From an uncultured virus (IMG/VR IMGVR_UViG_2663763079_000004) (Duplodnaviria > Heunggongvirae > Uroviricota > Caudoviricetes): a stretch of 34,864 bases of DNA. Location: positions 62,001 through 96,864 of IMG/VR virus record IMGVR_UViG_2663763079_000004; one strand, written 5' to 3'. Every line of letters starts with the position of its first letter. The first letter of the stretch is position 1. The notes beneath the pieces are model-generated. The model was not told the origin of the DNA, did no database searches, and saw only the letters and a program-made list of their open reading frames with translations. This document shows, piece after piece, positions 10,540 to 15,879 of this stretch. Made by a program: the position numbers and the translations under genes.

Positions 10540-11604
10540 ATGATCTTGCGCGGATTACTAACACCAGAGATTGTGCCCCGCCTCGGCGTAGTACTCTTTA
10601 AACCGGGAAAGGAGCTGATGAGCCTTTTTGCTCAGGGGCGAGTTCTAATAACTCCACAGCCCGAGTACATGGCCGGTTTTCCTACGGGGAAAGTGCCAGA
10701 CGCTCGCCAGCCGTTATCCGTAGATCGCAGCCTTGTTCCTTTCTTTACCGATCCACGTGTCATCACAGCTGCGGGAGGTATTGAGGGGCTGGAACGATGG
10801 CTTAACCTGGCTGTCAGACAATGCCAGAATCATGATGAGGGATATCACCACATCGAAACAGTCATCTTAAGGCAAGATCCAGGCTCCGTTTTATTATGCT
10901 GGCATTGCGACAATAAACTTCGAGATGAGCCGGATCCGGCGATCAAGGAAATAGCAAGCCGTAATGTTATCGACTGGGTCATCGATATGGTCCTGCTTTC
11001 GCTTGGATGCACCCGGGAAAGGACATTATCCCTGGCAGAGTTGTGCTGGTGGGCTGTTCAGTCTGGGATTTCTGATGCGATAACGGAGGCTATGGCTGAA
11101 AAGGCCTTGCGGATAGCTCCAGAGCCGCACCGTTCGGTATACAGGGACAGCGACATCATCCCGGCAATACCCGCGGCCGACATACTTAAAAGACGTCTGG
11201 ATAAGAGGGAAAGCCATGCCATAACAGGGGATCTGGAGACGGTTGATCAGGGTGCTGGGAAACCTATTCTCCGGTTGGGCGTGGATCCGGATTGCCCTGA
11301 AGCATTTATGTTGCGACCGAAGCGCCGGCGCTGGAGTTGCCCTCAATACACCCAGTGGGTAAAAACACAGGAATGTGCCTGCTGTAGGCAACCAGCTGAC
11401 GATCCACACCATATAATAGGGCATGGTATGGGAGGAACAGCAACCAAAGCCCATGACCTGTTCGTGATACCGCTGTGCAGAGCGCATCACGATGAACTAC
11501 ATGCCAACCTCATCGCATTTGAAGAGAAGTATGGTTCGCAGCTGGAGCTGCTAATCCGTTTTCTTGATCGTGCGCTTGGCATTGGCGTCATTTTTAAAGA
11601 ATAA
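10540..11604 (+). CDS. DUF968 (YdfU-like) protein
   Basis: LLTPEI.PRLGVVLFKPG start, LCWHCDN, CACC..PADDPHHIIGHG, PLCRAHHDELH. Confidence 0.88.
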   Translation: MILRGLLTPEIVPRLGVVLFKPGKELMSLFAQGRVLITPQPEYMAGFPTGKVPDARQPLSVDRSLVPFFTDPRVITAAGGIEGLERWLNLAVRQCQNHDEGYHHIETVILRQDPGSVLLCWHCDNKLRDEPDPAIKEIASRNVIDWVIDMVLLSLGCTRERTLSLAELCWWAVQSGISDAITEAMAEKALRIAPEPHRSVYRDSDIIPAIPAADILKRRLDKRESHAITGDLETVDQGAGKPILRLGVDPDCPEAFMLRPKRRRWSCPQYTQWVKTQECACCRQPADDPHHIIGHGMGGTATKAHDLFVIPLCRAHHDELHANLIAFEEKYGSQLELLIRFLDRALGIGVIFKE

Positions 11605-11622
11605 GTGTATGGAGTGCTGAGC

Positions 11623-12453
11623 ATGAATATCGAATCAATTCCAAAATTCTTTGCCCCGAAAGGAATGCATATATCAGATAGCGGGAGAGCAACTGCCAGC
11701 GAACAACTCACCGTAACTGACGTTATGGCTGCGCTGGGGATGACGCAGGCCGAAGCGGGGATCGGATTATCCATGTTCCTGGGTAAGGCTGGCATCAGCG
11801 AGAATGACCGCATGGCCTCAATTCACTGGTTGGCCGAATATGCAAAGAAGAATGCTCCCCGCTCAGTCAGGAAAGCCGCCGGCAAGAAATATCCTCTTTG
11901 CATGCTGATCATCGCCAGGTTCGCATATCACGACTACGCCTCATCAGCTGCGGATACTACGGACTGTACGAAATGCGCAGGTAAGGGGTTCGTGAAGAAA
12001 GTTAAAATGGTCGAGAAAAGCCACTACACAATGAGATTACCGCAATGGGCAAAAGACCTCAGGCAGTCACCTTCTGATTTTGAGGTTAAGCGGCAGGTGC
12101 AGGATGTCGATCACGTGCTTTGTGTGAAATGCCATGGCACCGGGAAAATCAGTAAGCGCTGCCAGTGCAGCGGGACGGGGAAGACACTTGACCGCAAAGA
12201 ATCCGAACTTCAGGGAGTGCCTGTCTACAAGACATGTAAGCGTTGTGAAGGCCGCGGGTTTAGCAGGCCAAAATCCTCCAATGCATACCGCGGCATCCTT
12301 TCAGAGTTACCTGGCTTGCCGGAGCGTACCTGGCGTTATAGCTGGAAACCTTTTTATGAAAGCCTAGTGACCAAATGTTTTGTGGAGGAGAGTTTTACTG
12401 ATGCTCAACTCCGGAGAGTTACAAAAACGACTAATTTGATAAATTTCGCATGA
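11623..12453 (+). CDS. Q: Late antitermination protein Q (Zn-finger, phage 82-type)
   Basis: KFFAPKG, LTVTDVMAALG, several CxxCxGxG motifs; followed by promoter and terminator. Confidence 0.9.
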   Translation: MNIESIPKFFAPKGMHISDSGRATASEQLTVTDVMAALGMTQAEAGIGLSMFLGKAGISENDRMASIHWLAEYAKKNAPRSVRKAAGKKYPLCMLIIARFAYHDYASSAADTTDCTKCAGKGFVKKVKMVEKSHYTMRLPQWAKDLRQSPSDFEVKRQVQDVDHVLCVKCHGTGKISKRCQCSGTGKTLDRKESELQGVPVYKTCKRCEGRGFSRPKSSNAYRGILSELPGLPERTWRYSWKPFYESLVTKCFVEESFTDAQLRRVTKTTNLINFA

Positions 12454-12469
12454 AATAGCGACACGATAC

Positions 12470-12497
12470 TTGCAAAGTTGCCGTTTTTGTGTAAATT
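12470..12497 (+). promoter_or_regulatory. Late promoter pR'
   Basis: TTGCAA-16 bp-TAAATT immediately after Q, with a terminator about 40 nt downstream. Confidence 0.7.
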
Positions 12498-12534
12498 TAA
12501 TCTTAACGATGGGCATTGTATGTTCAACGTTATC

Positions 12535-12560
12535 AAACCCGCCTCCGAGCGGGTTTTTTT
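12535..12560 (+). terminator. tR' terminator
   Basis: AAACCCGC-CTCCGA-GCGGGTTT plus T-run. Confidence 0.85.
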
Positions 12561-12662
12561 ATGGCTGCGAATCACATTTCTCGCAGTGGCGGTAATTTGT
12601 CGCTTGCTGAATTATTCGACCAGAGTTATCTGTGTGTCACGCCAAATGAAAGGGTAAAAGAC

Positions 12663-12899
12663 ATGCTAAATCAGCAAGATATGACAGAAACAGCCAAAAC
12701 GGTTTTGAACGCCTTAAGCGACAAGCCTGCAACGGCTGGAGAGATTGCACAGTATACGCACCTGACGCGTGAACGTTGCCAGTTAATACTGACGCAGCTT
12801 GTGATGGCGGGGTTATATGATTACCAGTGCTCTTTCCGTTGTGGCGAGCGAACATATCGGTTGATCCCGGCCTATAACGTAGCGATGTGCAAGCGTTGA
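12663..12899 (+). CDS. Small wHTH protein (TrmB-like, common after Q); C-terminus apparently replaced
   Basis: MLNQQDMTETA..PATAGEIAQ.T.L.RERCQLILTQLVMAGL.DYQ recognised; the sequence departs from the recalled family ending after DYQ (~12827). Confidence 0.6.
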   Translation: MLNQQDMTETAKTVLNALSDKPATAGEIAQYTHLTRERCQLILTQLVMAGLYDYQCSFRCGERTYRLIPAYNVAMCKR

Positions 12900-13082: not shown

Positions 13083-13112
13083 TTGCAAAAACTGTGGATA
13101 AGTCACTATAGT
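13083..13112 (+). promoter_or_regulatory. Candidate sigma70 promoter with a perfect DnaA box in its spacer
   Basis: TTGCAA (13083-13088), 18 bp, TATAGT (13107-13112); TGTGGATAA (reverse complement of TTATCCACA) at 13093-13101. Confidence 0.6.
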
Positions 13113-13185
13113 TAGCACTAACAAAAAGTATCCTCTGAAAAAAGTGGGATACTCAAAATAAAATCTCAATTTTTTGATACCGGCT

Positions 13186-13233
13186 ACACAACATGTAGTG
13201 CCTGATGTGGGTAGGGCGCACTACATGTGGTGA
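13186..13233. promoter_or_regulatory. Tandem NrdR-box-like operators
   Basis: ACACAACATGTAGTGC (13186-13201) and GCACTACATGTGGTGA (13218-13233) match acaCwAtATaTwGtgt at 13/16 and 11/16; starts are 32 bp apart. Confidence 0.65.
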
Positions 13234-13248
13234 TTGGAGGGCTTTACA

Positions 13249-13443
13249 ATGACAGTCAACGAAATCTACGAAACATACGGGATAGAACCAGCGCATTATG
13301 ATGCAAATGAGTCTCACTTTGCTTTCACTAAACGCATCCTGGGCTCAAGTCAGGTAACAGTAGAGAATACTGGTGTTAGTTATTCTTCCAGTAGTACTAA
13401 TAAAGGCAATATAGATAATAATAACAGTCTTTATAGTTACTAA
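13249..13443 (+). CDS. Small hypothetical protein (64 aa), Ser/Asn-rich C-terminus
   Basis: ATG 13249 after GGAGG; stops 8 bp before the protease gene. Confidence 0.7.
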   Translation: MTVNEIYETYGIEPAHYDANESHFAFTKRILGSSQVTVENTGVSYSSSSTNKGNIDNNNSLYSY

Positions 13444-13451
13444 GGGAAACT

Positions 13452-14360
13452 ATGCCGAACTGGAATGAAGTTCTGAACGAGATGACCATTCTTGAGCAGA
13501 AGAGTAACCCGTTGGATACCGTCAGGAAGAAGTATATAAAGAGTCTTTCTGACTACACAGGTAGAAATGTCATTTGTTACTACTCAGGATGGCTTCAGAA
13601 GAACACATCCAGTATTGGTCATTTAGTTTCTATGACAGATGACGACAAAAACGGTTTTATGACAGCCATCAATGGTATGGATCCCCAAAAGGGATTAGAT
13701 ATCCTTATTCATACACCTGGTGGTGAGATTGCTGCTTTAGAGTCTCTTGGGCAATATCTAAGGGCAAAATTTGGCACAGACATTCGTGCATTTGTTCCTA
13801 TGATCGCTATGTCTGCTGGCACAATGTTGGCATGCTGTGCAAAAGAGATTGTGATGGGGAAGCAATCAAATATTGGGCCATTTGATCCTCAAATGGGGGG
13901 ACTACCTGCTCATGGTATCCTTGAAGAGGTTGAAAAGGCCAAGCAAGAAATGATGCAAGACCAAAGAACGATTCCATTTTGGTCTTTCAATCTTCAGAAA
14001 CTGCATCCAACCTTCATCGGTGAGTGCGAAAAGGCCATCAAATGGGCAAGTGAAATTGTTTCTGAATGGTTAATTTCCGGGATGTTCAATGGCGAAGCTG
14101 ATGCTAGGAATAAAGCAGCGTCAATTTGTGGTCGACTAAATGATCATTCGACAACATATGCCCACGCTAGGCACATTCATATGGATAAGGCCCGCGAGAT
14201 AGGGTTAAAAATCGTCTCCTTAGAGGATGATCAAGAGCTTCAAGATCTAGTGCTTACTATTCATCATAGTTATATGCATACCTTTGGGAGCAGCACTGCG
14301 GTTAAAATTATTGAAAACCATAATGGGTCGACAATGATTTGGCATGCGGGAAACCAGTAG
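13452..14360 (+). CDS. SDH-family Clp-fold (ClpP/S49-like) serine protease
   Basis: LDILIHTPGG, AMSAGTMLA (Ser), SNIGPFDPQ (Asp), HARHI (His), A.EIGLKI; no signal peptide; AT-rich. Confidence 0.88.
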   Translation: MPNWNEVLNEMTILEQKSNPLDTVRKKYIKSLSDYTGRNVICYYSGWLQKNTSSIGHLVSMTDDDKNGFMTAINGMDPQKGLDILIHTPGGEIAALESLGQYLRAKFGTDIRAFVPMIAMSAGTMLACCAKEIVMGKQSNIGPFDPQMGGLPAHGILEEVEKAKQEMMQDQRTIPFWSFNLQKLHPTFIGECEKAIKWASEIVSEWLISGMFNGEADARNKAASICGRLNDHSTTYAHARHIHMDKAREIGLKIVSLEDDQELQDLVLTIHHSYMHTFGSSTAVKIIENHNGSTMIWHAGNQ

Positions 14361-14384
14361 CACAAATTCCACCCAACAGTTCTT

Positions 14385-14410
14385 AAAAGGCTACCACTGG
14401 TAGCCTTTTT
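14385..14410 (+). terminator. Terminator of the protease operon
   Basis: AAAAGGCTACC-ACT-GGTAGCCTTTTT. Confidence 0.85.
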
Positions 14411-14539: not shown

Positions 14540-15385
14540 ATGAAAAAAGTCACCATGGCCGCCATCGCGGTCGCTTCGCTGTGCCTGAGTAACGCCGCTT
14601 CGGCTACTGAGGTTGTTATCACGACTGGCCAGCAGGGACTGACCTACAACTCGGTGTACGGCGTGAACCTTGCCAGCGCACTGAATGAGTATGGTTACAG
14701 TTCGACGGTCATCCCCAGCAAAGGCTCACTCGACAATCTCGACAAGGTGGCCAGCGGCGCCGCTCAGATCGGTTTCACTCAGGCCGATGCTTTCCAGTTC
14801 TGGCGCGGCCGGCACAGTAACGAAGCACAGAAGGTAGACATCATTGGTGAGCTGGCCGATGAATGCGTTTTTGTGGCGGTGAAGAAGGGCGGCAAGATCA
14901 GCGATGAAGGGGATTTAAAGACGGGTGTGATAATCGCAGTCGGTGAGCCAACCAGCGGATCGTATGCATCCTGGCAATATCTTCAGGGGCTGGAAAAAGA
15001 CTACGCCAAAGTCGAGACCTATGCCAAAGGCGGTGTGCGCTCTCTGGCGAAAGTCACCACTGGCGAGTATGACGCCTTCCTCTGGGTATCAGCGCCGGAC
15101 CGGTCGAATAAGTTTCTGGAGGCGGTTAATCAGGAAGGCAGCGGCCTGACAATGATCGACATGAACGGCTGGCATGTAGACGATAAGTTGCCTAACGGGA
15201 AGCCGGTGTATGAGCTGAAAAAAGCGGTGACCGAATCCGGCTGGCTGAGTGACTCGAAGGTGAAGGTTCCTTGCACTAAGACGCTGGTGGTAGCAAATAC
15301 CGATGCTGGTGATGACATGCTGGAAACGGCCTCGACTGTCCTGCTGAAAAACCTGAGCCGGGTGCTCGGTACCAACGGTAAATAA
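14540..15385 (+). CDS. TAXI-family (TRAP-type) periplasmic solute-binding-like protein
   Basis: Signal peptide MKKVTMAAIAVASLCLSNAASA; ITTG..G.TY, S.GSLDNL..V.SG.AQIGFTQAD, AVG.P.SGS, G.YDAF motifs. Confidence 0.8.
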   Translation: MKKVTMAAIAVASLCLSNAASATEVVITTGQQGLTYNSVYGVNLASALNEYGYSSTVIPSKGSLDNLDKVASGAAQIGFTQADAFQFWRGRHSNEAQKVDIIGELADECVFVAVKKGGKISDEGDLKTGVIIAVGEPTSGSYASWQYLQGLEKDYAKVETYAKGGVRSLAKVTTGEYDAFLWVSAPDRSNKFLEAVNQEGSGLTMIDMNGWHVDDKLPNGKPVYELKKAVTESGWLSDSKVKVPCTKTLVVANTDAGDDMLETASTVLLKNLSRVLGTNGK

Positions 15386-15387
15386 TC

Positions 15388-15549
15388 ATGCTGCGCAGGC
15401 TGTGTTTCTGGGCGCTGTTTGCCGTTCTACTGTTCGTAGCCTGGCGGCTGGCGGGCATGCTGATGGATATGGTGCTGCTGGTCATCATCATTGTAACGTT
15501 GATTATGTACCGGAGCAGGGTATTTAAACGAAAATCCAAAAATAGATAA
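15388..15549 (+). CDS. Small membrane protein (53 aa, absent from the ORF track)
   Basis: Hand translation MLRRLCFWALFAVLLFVAWRLAGMLMDMVLLVIIIVTLIMYRSRVFKRKSKNR: two hydrophobic stretches, basic tail; starts 2 bp after the TAXI stop. Confidence 0.7.
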   Translation: MLRRLCFWALFAVLLFVAWRLAGMLMDMVLLVIIIVTLIMYRSRVFKRKSKNR

Positions 15550-15591
15550 TAGGCACATAAACATGATATGTGCCTATGACAAATTGACGTC

Positions 15592-15879
15592 TTATTGTTC
15601 TATTTTGTAGCCTAATGCTTCGAACTTCTGCTCAATGTTATTGTTAATAACTTTAGCTATTTTTGCAGAGCAAAAGACCTGTACTTTTACGCAGGTATCA
15701 ATATTGTCAAGGCGAAAGTTACAACCTAACGGGATCACAGTTATTTCTCTATCTAGCTTTTGGTAATCTTCTTGATCATTAATCTCTTTAGCCACTGCTT
15801 TGCAATCGGTTGCTAACTTTTTATACTCTTTTTCATCATTTTTTATGCGAATGGTTATTATTGTCGGAGGGTTTGACAT
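15592..15879 (-). CDS. Hypothetical protein, AT-rich antisense moron
   Basis: 95-aa ORF with AAGGAA RBS; hairpin ATAGGCACATA/TATGTGCCTAT (15549-15577) lies between the convergent genes. Confidence 0.7.
   Translation of the reverse strand: MSNPPTIITIRIKNDEKEYKKLATDCKAVAKEINDQEDYQKLDREITVIPLGCNFRLDNIDTCVKVQVFCSAKIAKVINNNIEQKFEALGYKIEQ

What the first reader, a model, noticed from the sequence alone, without database searches (positions are those of the whole stretch)
13083..14410. Peptide plus Clp-fold protease operon under tandem NrdR-like boxes and a DnaA box: candidate dNTP/replication-sensing defence module
Seen: a self-contained AT-rich unit with a candidate promoter holding a perfect DnaA box (13093-13101) in its spacer, two 16-bp boxes starting 32 bp apart (13186, 13218) that keep all strongly conserved positions of the NrdR consensus, the second next to the RBS, then a 64-aa ORF, an SDH-triad Clp-fold protease with no signal peptide, and a terminator. 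Established: NrdR is an ATP/dATP-sensing repressor binding tandem boxes about three helical turns apart; DnaA plus NrdR is the control logic of the enterobacterial nrdAB promoter; the slot after pR' carries lysogenic-conversion morons. Inference: a non-RNR prophage cargo borrows host nucleotide/replication sensing so the protease is switched on when dNTP pools change or DnaA/NrdR are titrated, e.g. during superinfecting phage replication.
Basis: partly seen in the sequence, partly recalled or inferred. Interest (0 to 1): 0.88.

Follow-up and report, generated by a model that had tools for sequence, protein, structure and literature searches.

The report
NrdR-controlled prophage peptide-protease cassette
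A prophage carries a small two-gene cassette (a short disordered protein plus a ClpP-like serine protease) that sits behind a binding site of the kind that the host's nucleotide-sensing repressor NrdR otherwise uses only on DNA-precursor genes, which suggests that the cassette is switched on when DNA building blocks run low.

Summary
The two 16-bp boxes (13186, 13218; 16-bp linker) carry all 12 core NrdR positions. This is the only such pair in the 96.9-kb record, against 0.01 expected.

The pair is conserved. All 24 sequences whose protease is at least 64% identical keep 12/12 core positions with a 15-16-bp linker of unconserved sequence, and 0 of 93 more distant loci do. In four host genomes the same pattern hits only nrdDG promoters, nrdHIEF promoters and this cassette.

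I read it as a real NrdR operator on a non-RNR operon. The papers I read say paired boxes occur only at RNR operons.

The DnaA box is not part of the module: it is at chance level alone and perfect in 4 of 24 loci, where it belongs to one promoter lineage.

The cassette is an old mobile pair, a short protein with a disordered C-terminal half plus a PF01972 protease. Distant copies often lie inside type I restriction-modification loci and beside other defence genes, so a defence role is plausible but untested.

In most relatives, though not in the window, an intrinsic terminator ends about 23 nt before box 1. This hints at NrdR-assisted termination.

The parts
13083..13112 (+). sigma-70-type promoter-like site TTGCAA-18-TATAGT (predicted start near 13119)
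   Evidence: 9 of 12 matches. Homologous promoters (TTGnnn - spacer - TATAGT) stand upstream of the cassette in L001, L013, L051, L012, L118 and the E. coli loci L262-L264 and L266. RNA contigs of two studies begin at 13137.
13093..13101 (-). perfect DnaA-box 9-mer TTATCCACA in the promoter spacer
   Evidence: 1 in the window against 0.23 expected, with 21 of 100 shuffles having at least one. At the same place in 4 of 24 close loci (WIN, L001, L013, L051); degenerate in L118, L262 and L264; absent in the rest.
13127..13153 (+). leader hairpin (10-bp stem, one mismatch) without a canonical T-run; most relatives have an intrinsic terminator at this place
   Evidence: With a strict definition, 14 of 19 distinct loci have a terminator whose stem ends 21-25 nt before box 1. 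The window itself does not.
13186..13201 (.). NrdR box 1, ACACAACATGTAGTGC (C4 A6 A8 T9 T11 G13 all present)
   Evidence: Core positions as stated in PMC13584703.
13202..13217 (.). 16-bp linker, not conserved in sequence among relatives
   Evidence: the linker is 15 bp in 13 and 16 bp in 6 of 19 distinct loci. The required 15-16 bp length is stated in PMC13584703 and PMC12051234.
13218..13233 (.). NrdR box 2, GCACTACATGTGGTGA (all six core positions present); ends 2 nt before the SD
13249..13443 (+). 64-aa partner protein: two short N-terminal helices and a disordered C-terminal half carrying the conserved VSYSS motif and an LYSY end
   Evidence: phrog_25714 at 1.4e-09; alignment A1 with Y45 nearly invariant; AF2 mean pLDDT 66.7 with helices at 3-10 and 23-33; the A1 HMM finds a homologue upstream of the protease in 52 of 117 loci.
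13452..14360 (+). 302-aa cytoplasmic SDH-type ClpP-fold serine protease (Ser121 in AMSAG is invariant)
   Evidence: PF01972 at 6.3e-24; phrog_11747 at 5.1e-113; alignment A2 invariants; AF2 pLDDT 92.4; Foldseek gives ClpP and SppA.
14385..14409 (+). intrinsic terminator closing the unit
   Evidence: 11-bp stem, T-run. RNA contigs end at 14345-14365, and none of those laid continues into the next gene.
11605..12453 (+). context: antiterminator Q, followed by its own promoter-plus-terminator unit (TTGCAA 12470 -16- TAAATT 12492; terminator 12535-12556)
   Evidence: PF03589 at 4.1e-46.

Best explanation
The region 13083-14409 is a self-contained prophage cargo operon. It lies in the late region downstream of Q, and in most relatives directly between Q and the lysis genes. 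It encodes a 64-aa protein with a disordered C-terminal half and a cytoplasmic ClpP-fold (SDH-type) serine protease.

Between the promoter and the ribosome-binding site lies a true operator for the host repressor NrdR.

Proposed working:
1. When dATP is plentiful, the ATP+dATP-loaded NrdR tetramer binds the two boxes in the transcribed leader and blocks RNA polymerase. In most relatives this happens just after an intrinsic terminator.
2. When dATP falls relative to ATP, NrdR lets go and the two genes are made together with the host RNR genes. Such a fall could come from replication stress, hydroxyurea-type stress or nucleotide drain by a replicating phage.
3. The protease is the effector. The small protein is its co-translated partner, acting as inhibitor, substrate or adaptor.
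4. The most likely use is stress- or infection-triggered proteolysis that protects the lysogen population (abortive infection or defence).

What is shown: the operator's sequence, spacing and conservation; its specificity in host genomes; the family of the protease; the pairing of the two genes.

What is inferred: NrdR binding and its direction of control; the roadblock mechanism; the role of the small protein; the defence function.

My odds: NrdR operator about 0.85. A defence or abortive-infection role, given that, about 0.4.
For: Operator in the window. Both boxes hold C4 A6 A8 T9 T11 G13 and the linker is 16 bp. These are the defining features given in PMC13584703 and PMC12051234 (passages). 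The pair occurs once against 0.01 expected.

Conservation. 24 of 24 sequences with protease identity of at least 64% score 12/12 with a 15- or 16-bp linker. 0 of 93 loci at 60% or below do; their maximum is 10. Among 2421 background tiles of 270 nt, 0 score 12 and 3 score 11. In 19 distinct sequences the 12 core columns plus T14 are invariant while the linker is not conserved.

Host genomes. In four host genomes (about 20 Mb) that all encode NrdR, the strict pattern hits 11 places. These are 4 nrdDG promoters, 3 nrdHIEF promoters, 4 cassettes and nothing else (checked).

Non-core positions. They agree with host RNR boxes: A3 in 58/76 against 18/28, and T5 in 52/76 against 18/28.

Precedent for an operator downstream of the promoter. 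The functional E. coli nrdAB boxes 1+2 lie downstream of the promoter, and binding needs ATP+dATP (PMC12176259, passages).

No other conserved regulator. The wHTH gene upstream is missing from the other loci.

Transcription unit. RNA contigs of two studies span 13137 to 14345/14357.

Cassette. A same-strand ORF of 40-110 aa ends next to the protease start in 100 of 117 loci. It is a detectable homologue in 52 of 117.

Defence context. Of 68 diverse genome loci, 20 have a nearest neighbour with a PADLOC hit. 13 of these are clear: type I R-M in 7, type II or IV REases in 3, and a CBASS cyclase, SoFic and a PbeA-like protein in one each; one of the type I loci also carries HEC-01. L115 reads hsdS - small ORF - protease - hsdM.
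Against: - No binding or expression data exist; all of this is sequence inference.
- The window's own host is not known to me, so NrdR was shown only in the hosts of four relatives.
- The reversed-pattern control gave 8 places against 11. The pattern count alone is therefore not impressive; the argument rests on where the 11 lie.
- In E. coli, 3 of 5 variants inspected have 11/12 with C4 lost in one box (L262, L263 = Nissle 1917, L264). C4 is reported as critical.
- I found no sigma-70 promoter overlapping the boxes by eye, so repression must work on elongating polymerase. That is less usual.
- RNA contigs that hold the cassette have much higher word depth than flanking prophage contigs in three runs. 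If this reflects expression, repression is at most partial in those cultures.
- Neither protein hits any PADLOC model.
- The neighbour count had no control set.
- A scan of viral contigs found at least 114 similar box pairs, mostly beside non-RNR genes. Either such use is common in phages or A+T-rich palindromes mimic the pattern.
Confidence: 0.62

Rival explanations
1. The two boxes matter as RNA, not DNA. They pair into a leader hairpin next to the ribosome-binding site that sets mRNA stability or translation, and the likeness to NrdR boxes is incidental.
For: In the window the boxes form a 15-bp stem with one mismatch, and the leader 13119-13260 folds better than shuffles (z = -3.08). On 19 sequences the covariation score is 0.213 against 0.165 in shuffles (8 of 500 reach it). 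Pair 7-42 switches between C-G (11) and U-A (6).
Against: - 77.0% of cells are paired against 74.6% in shuffles (34 of 500), so pairing follows from both boxes being the same palindrome.
- The three outer pairs are unpaired in 13-15 of 19 sequences.
- The invariant columns are exactly the six NrdR core positions in each box.
- The loop is held at 15-16 nt, which a hairpin does not need.
- The same motif marks the nrdDG and nrdHIEF promoters in the hosts.
Confidence: 0.07
2. The boxes are the operator of a factor encoded by the element itself: the small protein acting as an autoregulating antitoxin, or the wHTH protein at 12561-12899.
For: Small upstream genes of two-gene toxin-like modules often bind palindromes in their own promoters (general knowledge, recalled). 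The small protein has two N-terminal helices. A MarR-like wHTH gene lies just upstream in the window.
Against: - The wHTH gene is absent upstream of the cassette in the other close loci; there is only a partial hit, downstream, in L051.
- Loci at 60% identity or below that have a homologous small protein lack the boxes.
- A private operator that copies 12 core positions, the linker length and the secondary preferences of NrdR sites would be a coincidence.
Confidence: 0.05
3. The boxes act mainly as a decoy. As the phage genome multiplies, its NrdR sites titrate the scarce repressor and lift host RNR expression to feed phage DNA synthesis. The neighbouring genes are bystanders.
For: Many viral contigs carry near-consensus box pairs next to non-RNR genes; only 1 of 80 sampled loci has an RNR gene beside the pair. 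The NrdR site is the only one in the 96.9-kb record.
Against: The pair keeps one fixed place immediately before the cassette's ribosome-binding site, wherever the cassette sits: after Q, after the lysis genes (L003, L005, L262, L264), or in a non-lambdoid element (L265). One site per genome is a weak sponge.
Confidence: 0.1
4. The cassette serves the phage's own lytic cycle, for example by processing a phage or host protein late in infection, rather than defence. NrdR only keeps it quiet in the lysogen.
For: The cassette sits in the late region behind Q and a promoter-terminator unit of the pR'/tR' type. Both proteins belong to PHROG families. Homologues occur in sequenced phages of Shewanella, Porphyromonas and Gordonia.
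Against: The same pair occurs outside phages, inside type I R-M loci and beside other defence genes. It is absent from most relatives of these phages: 86 of 5426 complete E. coli genomes have it. That is typical of accessory cargo.
Confidence: 0.2

Closest known systems
NrdR operators of enterobacterial RNR operons (nrdAB, nrdHIEF, nrdDG)
   Same: Two 16-bp partly palindromic boxes with C4 A6 A8 T9 T11 G13. The linker is 15-16 bp and free in sequence. The non-core preferences are the same. As at E. coli nrdAB, the operator lies downstream of the promoter.
   Different: The controlled genes have nothing to do with ribonucleotide reduction and sit on a prophage. The passages I read say that in E. 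coli K-12 and P. aeruginosa PAO1 only RNR operons carry box pairs (bioRxiv 10.1101/2025.03.28.645925). In most relatives the operator follows an intrinsic terminator at a fixed 21-25 nt.
Host-regulator-controlled morons in the Q-to-lysis slot of lambdoid phages, such as the Fur-regulated stx1 promoter (recalled, not checked here)
   Same: An accessory operon downstream of Q/pR'/tR' that carries a site for a host repressor and ends in its own terminator.
   Different: The sensor is nucleotide status (NrdR) rather than iron. The cargo is a cytoplasmic protease pair rather than a secreted toxin.
PF01972 SDH_protease / MEROPS S49, ClpP clan (SppA, ClpP)
   Same: The HMM match is above Pfam's cut-off. 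There is an invariant Ser in a GxSxG-like AMSAG motif. Foldseek gives the ClpP/SppA fold.
   Different: There is no signal peptide or membrane anchor. The protein has an extra helical C-terminal half (residues about 150-302). It is always preceded by a small partner gene. It scores 98.9 against the NCBIfam equivalog cut-off of 250.
Defence genes embedded in type I R-M loci (PrrC-type arrangement; PADLOC's HEC candidates) and prophage abortive-infection proteases such as Lit of e14 (recalled)
   Same: Distant copies of the cassette lie between hsdS and hsdM or next to them, in 7 of 68 loci. Other copies lie beside REases, a CBASS cyclase, SoFic and HEC-01. The cassette is prophage-borne in enterobacteria.
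   Different: There is no PADLOC model hit for either protein and no phenotype is known. The protease class differs from Lit, which is a metalloprotease.

Membership tests
NrdR operator (NrdR regulon) | Two 16-bp boxes, each with C4, A6, A8, T9, T11, G13 | tested here: met
   for the window. 24 of 24 close loci score 12/12. Of 5 E. coli variants, 2 score 12/12 and 3 score 11/12.
NrdR operator (NrdR regulon) | Linker of 15-16 bp, constrained in length but not in sequence | tested here: met
   16 bp in the window. 15 bp in 13 and 16 bp in 6 of 19 distinct loci, with unconserved linker columns.
NrdR operator (NrdR regulon) | Host encodes NrdR | tested here: inconclusive
   All 4 host genomes of close relatives have TIGR00244 above its cut-off. 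The window is a virus record and its own host could not be searched.
NrdR operator (NrdR regulon) | Site lies in the promoter or leader of the regulated operon | tested here: met
   Box 2 ends 2 nt before the SD. The promoter-like site lies 74 nt upstream of box 1. RNA contigs start upstream of the boxes.
NrdR operator (NrdR regulon) | NrdR binds with ATP+dATP, and the operon is derepressed in an nrdR mutant | not testable with these tools
   Needs EMSA or MST and reporter assays.
NrdR operator (NrdR regulon) | Regulated genes encode ribonucleotide reductase or its helpers | tested here: not met
   The genes are a PF01972 protease and a phrog_25714 small protein. No RNR gene appears among the 120 neighbours scanned.
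PF01972 SDH_protease (ClpP-like serine proteinase) | HMM score above Pfam's gathering cut-off | tested here: met
   84.9 bits against 31.3.
PF01972 SDH_protease (ClpP-like serine proteinase) | Conserved catalytic Ser, with Asp and His after it in the sequence | tested here: inconclusive
   S121 is invariant. D145, H238 and H241 are conserved in at least 90% of 53 sequences. Which of them forms the triad was not checked on the model.
NCBIfam NF047768 Clp_like_SDH (equivalog) | Score above the curated cut-off | tested here: not met
   98.9 bits against 250. RefSeq nonetheless names the E. coli homologues 'SDH family Clp fold serine proteinase'.
Known anti-phage defence system | Match to a model of a described or candidate system | tested here: not met
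   PADLOC gives 0 families for both proteins.
Known anti-phage defence system | Enrichment next to defence genes | tested here: inconclusive
   20 of 68 loci have a neighbour with a PADLOC hit, 13 of them clear and 7 of those type I R-M. No control set was run.
Known anti-phage defence system | Protection against phage in an assay | not testable with these tools
   Needs plating assays.
DnaA-regulated promoter | Consensus 9-mer TTATCCACA conserved with the promoter | tested here: inconclusive
   Perfect in the window but at chance level. Kept at the same place in 4 of 24 loci with diverged flanks, degenerate in others of the same promoter lineage, and absent from the second promoter lineage.
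Type II toxin-antitoxin-like pair | Small upstream gene tightly linked to a larger downstream effector gene | tested here: met
   The gap is 8 nt in the window. The positional partner is present in 100 of 117 loci. A terminator lies between the two genes in the L020-L029 group.
Type II toxin-antitoxin-like pair | Effector toxic alone and neutralised by the partner | not testable with these tools
   Needs expression tests.

The most novel reading that the evidence does not exclude
The cassette is a new kind of abortive-infection or defence module that has no sensor of its own. It borrows the host's dATP/ATP sensor NrdR. NrdR acts here by a mechanism not described for it: bound about 20 nt behind an intrinsic terminator, it stalls RNA polymerase in the termination zone. 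Terminator read-through, and with it protease synthesis, then depends on the dNTP pool. A phage that drains or distorts the pool would release the protease. The many box pairs seen beside non-RNR genes in viral contigs would mean that phages use NrdR wiring widely.
Probability: 0.2. Interest if true: 0.88.

Novelty: new variant of a known kind. Interest (0 to 1): 0.72.

Why it matters
NrdR is treated as an RNR-specific repressor. The passages I read state that only RNR operons carry correctly spaced box pairs. A box pair that is conserved in front of a non-RNR prophage operon across Kluyvera, Buttiauxella, Mangrovibacter and E. coli relatives would be the first well-supported member of the regulon outside nucleotide reduction.

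It would also show that mobile cargo can be wired to the cell's dNTP status. dNTP supply is a known battleground between phages and bacteria.

The cassette is an uncharacterised, widespread gene pair. 362 protein clusters at 50% identity match at E <= 1e-30. Its context hints at defence.

Everything is testable with standard tools in E. coli K-12. Natural copies exist in 86 of 5426 complete E. coli genomes, including Nissle 1917.

Tried and rejected
- ESM Atlas on the small protein: no usable hit.
- Papers on PF01972 / SDH proteinase: 6 hits, none on function (listing only).
- Papers on ClpP-like proteases in defence islands or R-M loci: nothing specific (listings only).
- Papers linking NrdR with phage or prophage genes other than RNR: none found.
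- Earlier findings of this scan: 5 notes sharing 4-6 short words, none relevant.
- Near-identity DNA search: no match in E. coli complete genomes and only one partial phage match.
- A sigma-70 promoter overlapping the boxes: I looked by eye in the printed upstream regions and found no consistent -35/-10. This is not a formal test.
- Reading TGTGGATAA as the Q-binding element: the window's Q is 74% identical to the Qs of L012 and L019, whose promoters lack the 9-mer. It is only 35-38% identical to the Qs of L001 and L051, whose promoters have it. The idea is neither supported nor excluded.
- wHTH protein as box binder: rejected.
- RNA contig depths: the tool warns that depth cannot rank genes, so I use only what the contigs span.
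- Parts of the stretch without RNA cover (14631-15600 in three runs): no conclusion.
Full report
**What is there.**

The window is the last 35 kb of a 96,864-bp virus record. Around the finding lies the late-control region of a lambdoid prophage, in this order:
- A DUF968 protein (10540-11604).
- An antiterminator Q (11605-12453; PF03589 at 4.1e-46).
- A promoter-plus-terminator unit directly behind Q: TTGCAA at 12470, 16 nt, TAAATT, then a terminator at 12535-12556.
- A MarR-like wHTH gene (phrog_331) and a 74-aa ORF.
- The unit in question.
- A TAXI-like exported binding protein (phrog_6856).
- Holin-type genes from 16018.

- Promoter-like TTGCAA-18-TATAGT at 13083-13112.
- TTATCCACA on the minus strand at 13093-13101.
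- Boxes at 13186-13201 and 13218-13233.
- SD at 13236-13240.
- A 64-aa ORF at 13249-13443.
- A 302-aa ORF at 13452-14360.
- A terminator at 14385-14409.

GC is 0.39-0.445 inside the unit and 0.50-0.56 beside it.

**Are the boxes more than chance?**

According to passages I read in PMC13584703 and PMC12051234, an NrdR site has these features:
- Two 16-bp boxes with six highly conserved positions: C4, A6, A8, T9, T11, G13.
- A 15-16-bp linker whose sequence does not matter.
- Both boxes are needed for binding.

Both window boxes hold all six positions and the linker is 16 bp. Single boxes of this kind are at chance in the window: 9 seen against 9.06 in 300 dinucleotide shuffles. The pair is not: 1 seen against 0.01 expected (3 of 300 shuffles). 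It is the only pair in the whole record.

**Conservation.**

I fetched 48 viral loci and 73 genome loci that encode a relative of the protease. 116 of them were usable. I searched the stretch upstream of the small ORF for the best box pair.
- The window and all 23 loci with protease identity of at least 64% score 12 of 12 core positions with a 15- or 16-bp linker.
- None of the 93 loci at 60% or below does; the highest score is 10.
- Among 2421 background tiles of 270 nt from the same loci, none scores 12 and three score 11.
- The 24 sequences reduce to 19 distinct ones. In their alignment the 12 core columns and T14 are invariant while the linker is not conserved.

Results against the trend: in E. 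coli complete genomes the cassette is found in 86 of 5426. Of the five variants I inspected, two score 12/12 (L265, L266). Three score 11/12 with the C of one box displaced (L262, L263 = Nissle 1917, L264).

**Is it NrdR's motif?**

Four named host genomes hold close relatives: Kluyvera, Mangrovibacter, Buttiauxella, and an assembly labelled Pseudomonas lundensis. All four encode NrdR, nrdA and nrdD, and three of them also encode nrdE.

The strict pattern CNANATNTNG-N21/22-CNANATNTNG has 11 places in these roughly 20 Mb. Four lie upstream of nrdD, three upstream of the nrdHIEF cluster, four are the cassette, and none lies elsewhere (positions checked). The tool's control, the pattern read backwards, has 8 places. 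The count as such is therefore not the argument; the locations are.

nrdAB does not meet the strict pattern. [quoted passage not shown]

Positions outside the core also agree between cassette boxes and host RNR boxes: A3 in 58/76 against 18/28, T5 in 52/76 against 18/28, and C or T at position 7. The host boxes were picked by their core, so only the non-core agreement is independent.

A preprint (10.1101/2025.03.28.645925, passages) states that in E. coli K-12 and PAO1 only RNR operons have box pairs, and that single boxes at topA or dnaA are doubtful. My searches found no paper on NrdR sites at non-RNR phage genes.

**Rivals for the boxes.**

An RNA hairpin between the boxes is possible in the window. 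On the 19 sequences, pairing is barely above shuffles: 77.0% against 74.6%, with 34 of 500 shuffles as high. The covariation score is 0.213 against 0.165 (8 of 500), and the outer three pairs are mostly open. The tool itself warns that related sequences can exceed shuffles. The fixed linker length and the identity of the invariant columns fit a protein site better.

A regulator encoded by the element is unlikely. The wHTH gene is not found upstream of the cassette in the other loci. Distant loci with a homologous small protein have no boxes.

**The DnaA box.**

The 9-mer is perfect but expected 0.23 times in the window; 21 of 100 shuffles have one.

It recurs at the same place in the promoter spacer in L001, L013 and L051, with diverged flanks, which argues for some function there. 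It is degenerate in L118, L262 and L264. It is absent from the other loci, which use another promoter lineage (TTGCAA-17-TATTTA).

It therefore belongs to one promoter lineage, not to the module. Whether DnaA or the antiterminator reads it stays open.

**Promoter, terminator and a possible mechanism.**

I found no consistent sigma-70 promoter inside the operator, looking by eye. The upstream promoter is the likely source of transcripts.

RNA-library contigs support one unit. Two runs from two studies each have a contig that begins at 13137 and ends at 14345 or 14357 without loose ends. Two runs of another sample have contigs spanning 12825/12834 to 14365/14162. No contig continues into the next gene. 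These are contigs, so starts and levels are only hints.

In most relatives an intrinsic terminator stands between promoter and boxes.
- With a strict definition, 14 of 19 distinct loci have a terminator stem ending 21-25 nt before box 1, against 0.8% of positions in the background.
- With a looser finder, the distance is 20-25 nt in 21 of 24 loci, counting L051 by a manual reading. This includes terminators of unrelated sequence (L265, the L262 type).
- The window itself, L001, L003, L005 and L018 have only a hairpin without a proper T-run.

E. coli nrdAB shows that NrdR can act from downstream of a promoter (PMC12176259). The fixed distance suggests that bound NrdR stalls polymerase in the termination zone. 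That is inference, and part of the regularity may be shared ancestry of the pR'/tR'-like segment.

**The two proteins.**

The protease:
- It matches PF01972 (84.9 bits, cut-off 31.3) and phrog_11747 (5.1e-113). It does not reach the NCBIfam equivalog cut-off (98.9 against 250).
- In 53 aligned relatives Ser121 (AMSAG) is invariant, and D145, H238 and H241 are nearly so.
- The AF2 model is confident (pLDDT 92.4).
- Foldseek finds ClpP and SppA, at E about 2e-4 and a target TM-score of 0.5-0.63. The helical C-terminal half has no match.
- The family has 362 clusters at E <= 1e-30 among 1.84 billion representatives.

The small protein:
- It matches phrog_25714.
- The AF2 model has low confidence overall (mean pLDDT 66.7). 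It shows two short helices, and the rest looks disordered.
- It keeps a V-x-Y-S-S/T motif across its family, and in the close group an L/M-Y-S-Y end.
- A same-strand ORF of 40-110 aa ends within -45 to +90 nt of the protease start in 100 of 117 loci. This is a mechanical count.
- A profile of 39 members finds a homologue in 52 of 117 loci.
- In all eight loci of the L020-L029 group for which upstream sequence was printed, a terminator lies between the two genes. That would give more small protein than protease.

**What might it do?**

Neither protein hits PADLOC. In enterobacterial relatives the cassette sits after Q and before the lysis genes, after the lysis genes and before the terminase, or in a non-lambdoid element. 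It always carries its own leader.

In 68 diverse genome loci I scanned the nearest large ORF on each side, 120 ORFs in all.
- 20 loci have a neighbour with a PADLOC hit at E <= 1e-5.
- 13 of these are clear:
  - type I R-M subunits in L064, L065, L071, L073, L109, L113 and L115;
  - type II or IV endonucleases in L102, L103 and L108;
  - a CBASS cyclase in L061;
  - SoFic in L097;
  - a PbeA-like helicase in L119.
  L109, already counted among the type I loci, also has HEC-01 on its other side.
- The other 7 hits are generic domains.
- Integrases or transposases flank five more loci.
- No control set was run, so this is a lead. Still, being embedded between hsdS and hsdM (L115) is the classic place of abortive-infection genes.

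I therefore keep defence as the leading reading at about 0.4. A role in the phage's own lytic cycle is at about 0.2.

**Verdict.**

- The NrdR reading is strongly supported by comparative evidence.
- The DnaA part is not a property of the module.
- The defence reading is plausible but unproven.
- The finding extends a regulon thought to be RNR-only to a mobile protease cassette, and it raises a testable new mechanism.

Noticed in passing
In the 80 loci fetched, only one (L177) has an RNR gene within 300 nt. The others lie beside portal, terminase, antirepressor, MT-A70, YopX and holin genes, or genes of no family. Several recurring near-perfect pairs sit on 90-190 kb contigs. Either phages use NrdR sites widely, or A+T-rich palindromes mimic them.
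   Followed up: partly
window 12470-12556: A second promoter-plus-terminator unit lies directly behind Q (TTGCAA-16-TAAATT, terminator 12535-12556). The window thus has two pR'/tR'-like units 600 bp apart, with a wHTH gene (phrog_331) and a 74-aa ORF between them. This looks like the scar of a recombination that brought in the cassette together with a foreign late promoter.
   Followed up: partly
L020-L029, L053 (protease 58-60% identical): This group has no NrdR boxes. It has a short inverted repeat (ACGTAcggaTACGT type) before the ribosome-binding site. The eight loci of this group printed (L053 was not printed) also have a strong terminator between the small gene and the protease gene.
   Followed up: no
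L265 (E. coli ETEC isolate record): Here the cassette, with 12/12 boxes, lies in a non-lambdoid element next to RepA-helicase, ProQ/FinO and PerC-family genes. It again has its own promoter, terminator and boxes.
   Followed up: partly
L049 / G004: The assembly labelled Pseudomonas lundensis carries a lambdoid-type cassette identical in its boxes to the viral locus L002. It also has nrdAB, nrdEF and nrdD with enterobacterial-type NrdR sites. The label or the purity of the assembly may be doubtful.
   Followed up: no
window 14540-15385: The next gene after the cassette's terminator is a secreted TAXI/NMT1-like solute-binding protein (phrog_6856 at 1.1e-122) in G+C-rich DNA (0.55). It looks like a separate moron of different origin.
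   Followed up: no
L051 2630-2665 and L013: In two relatives the DnaA-type 9-mer occurs twice. In L051 the two copies form an inverted pair flanking the -10 element; in L013 they lie 62 nt apart.
   Followed up: no
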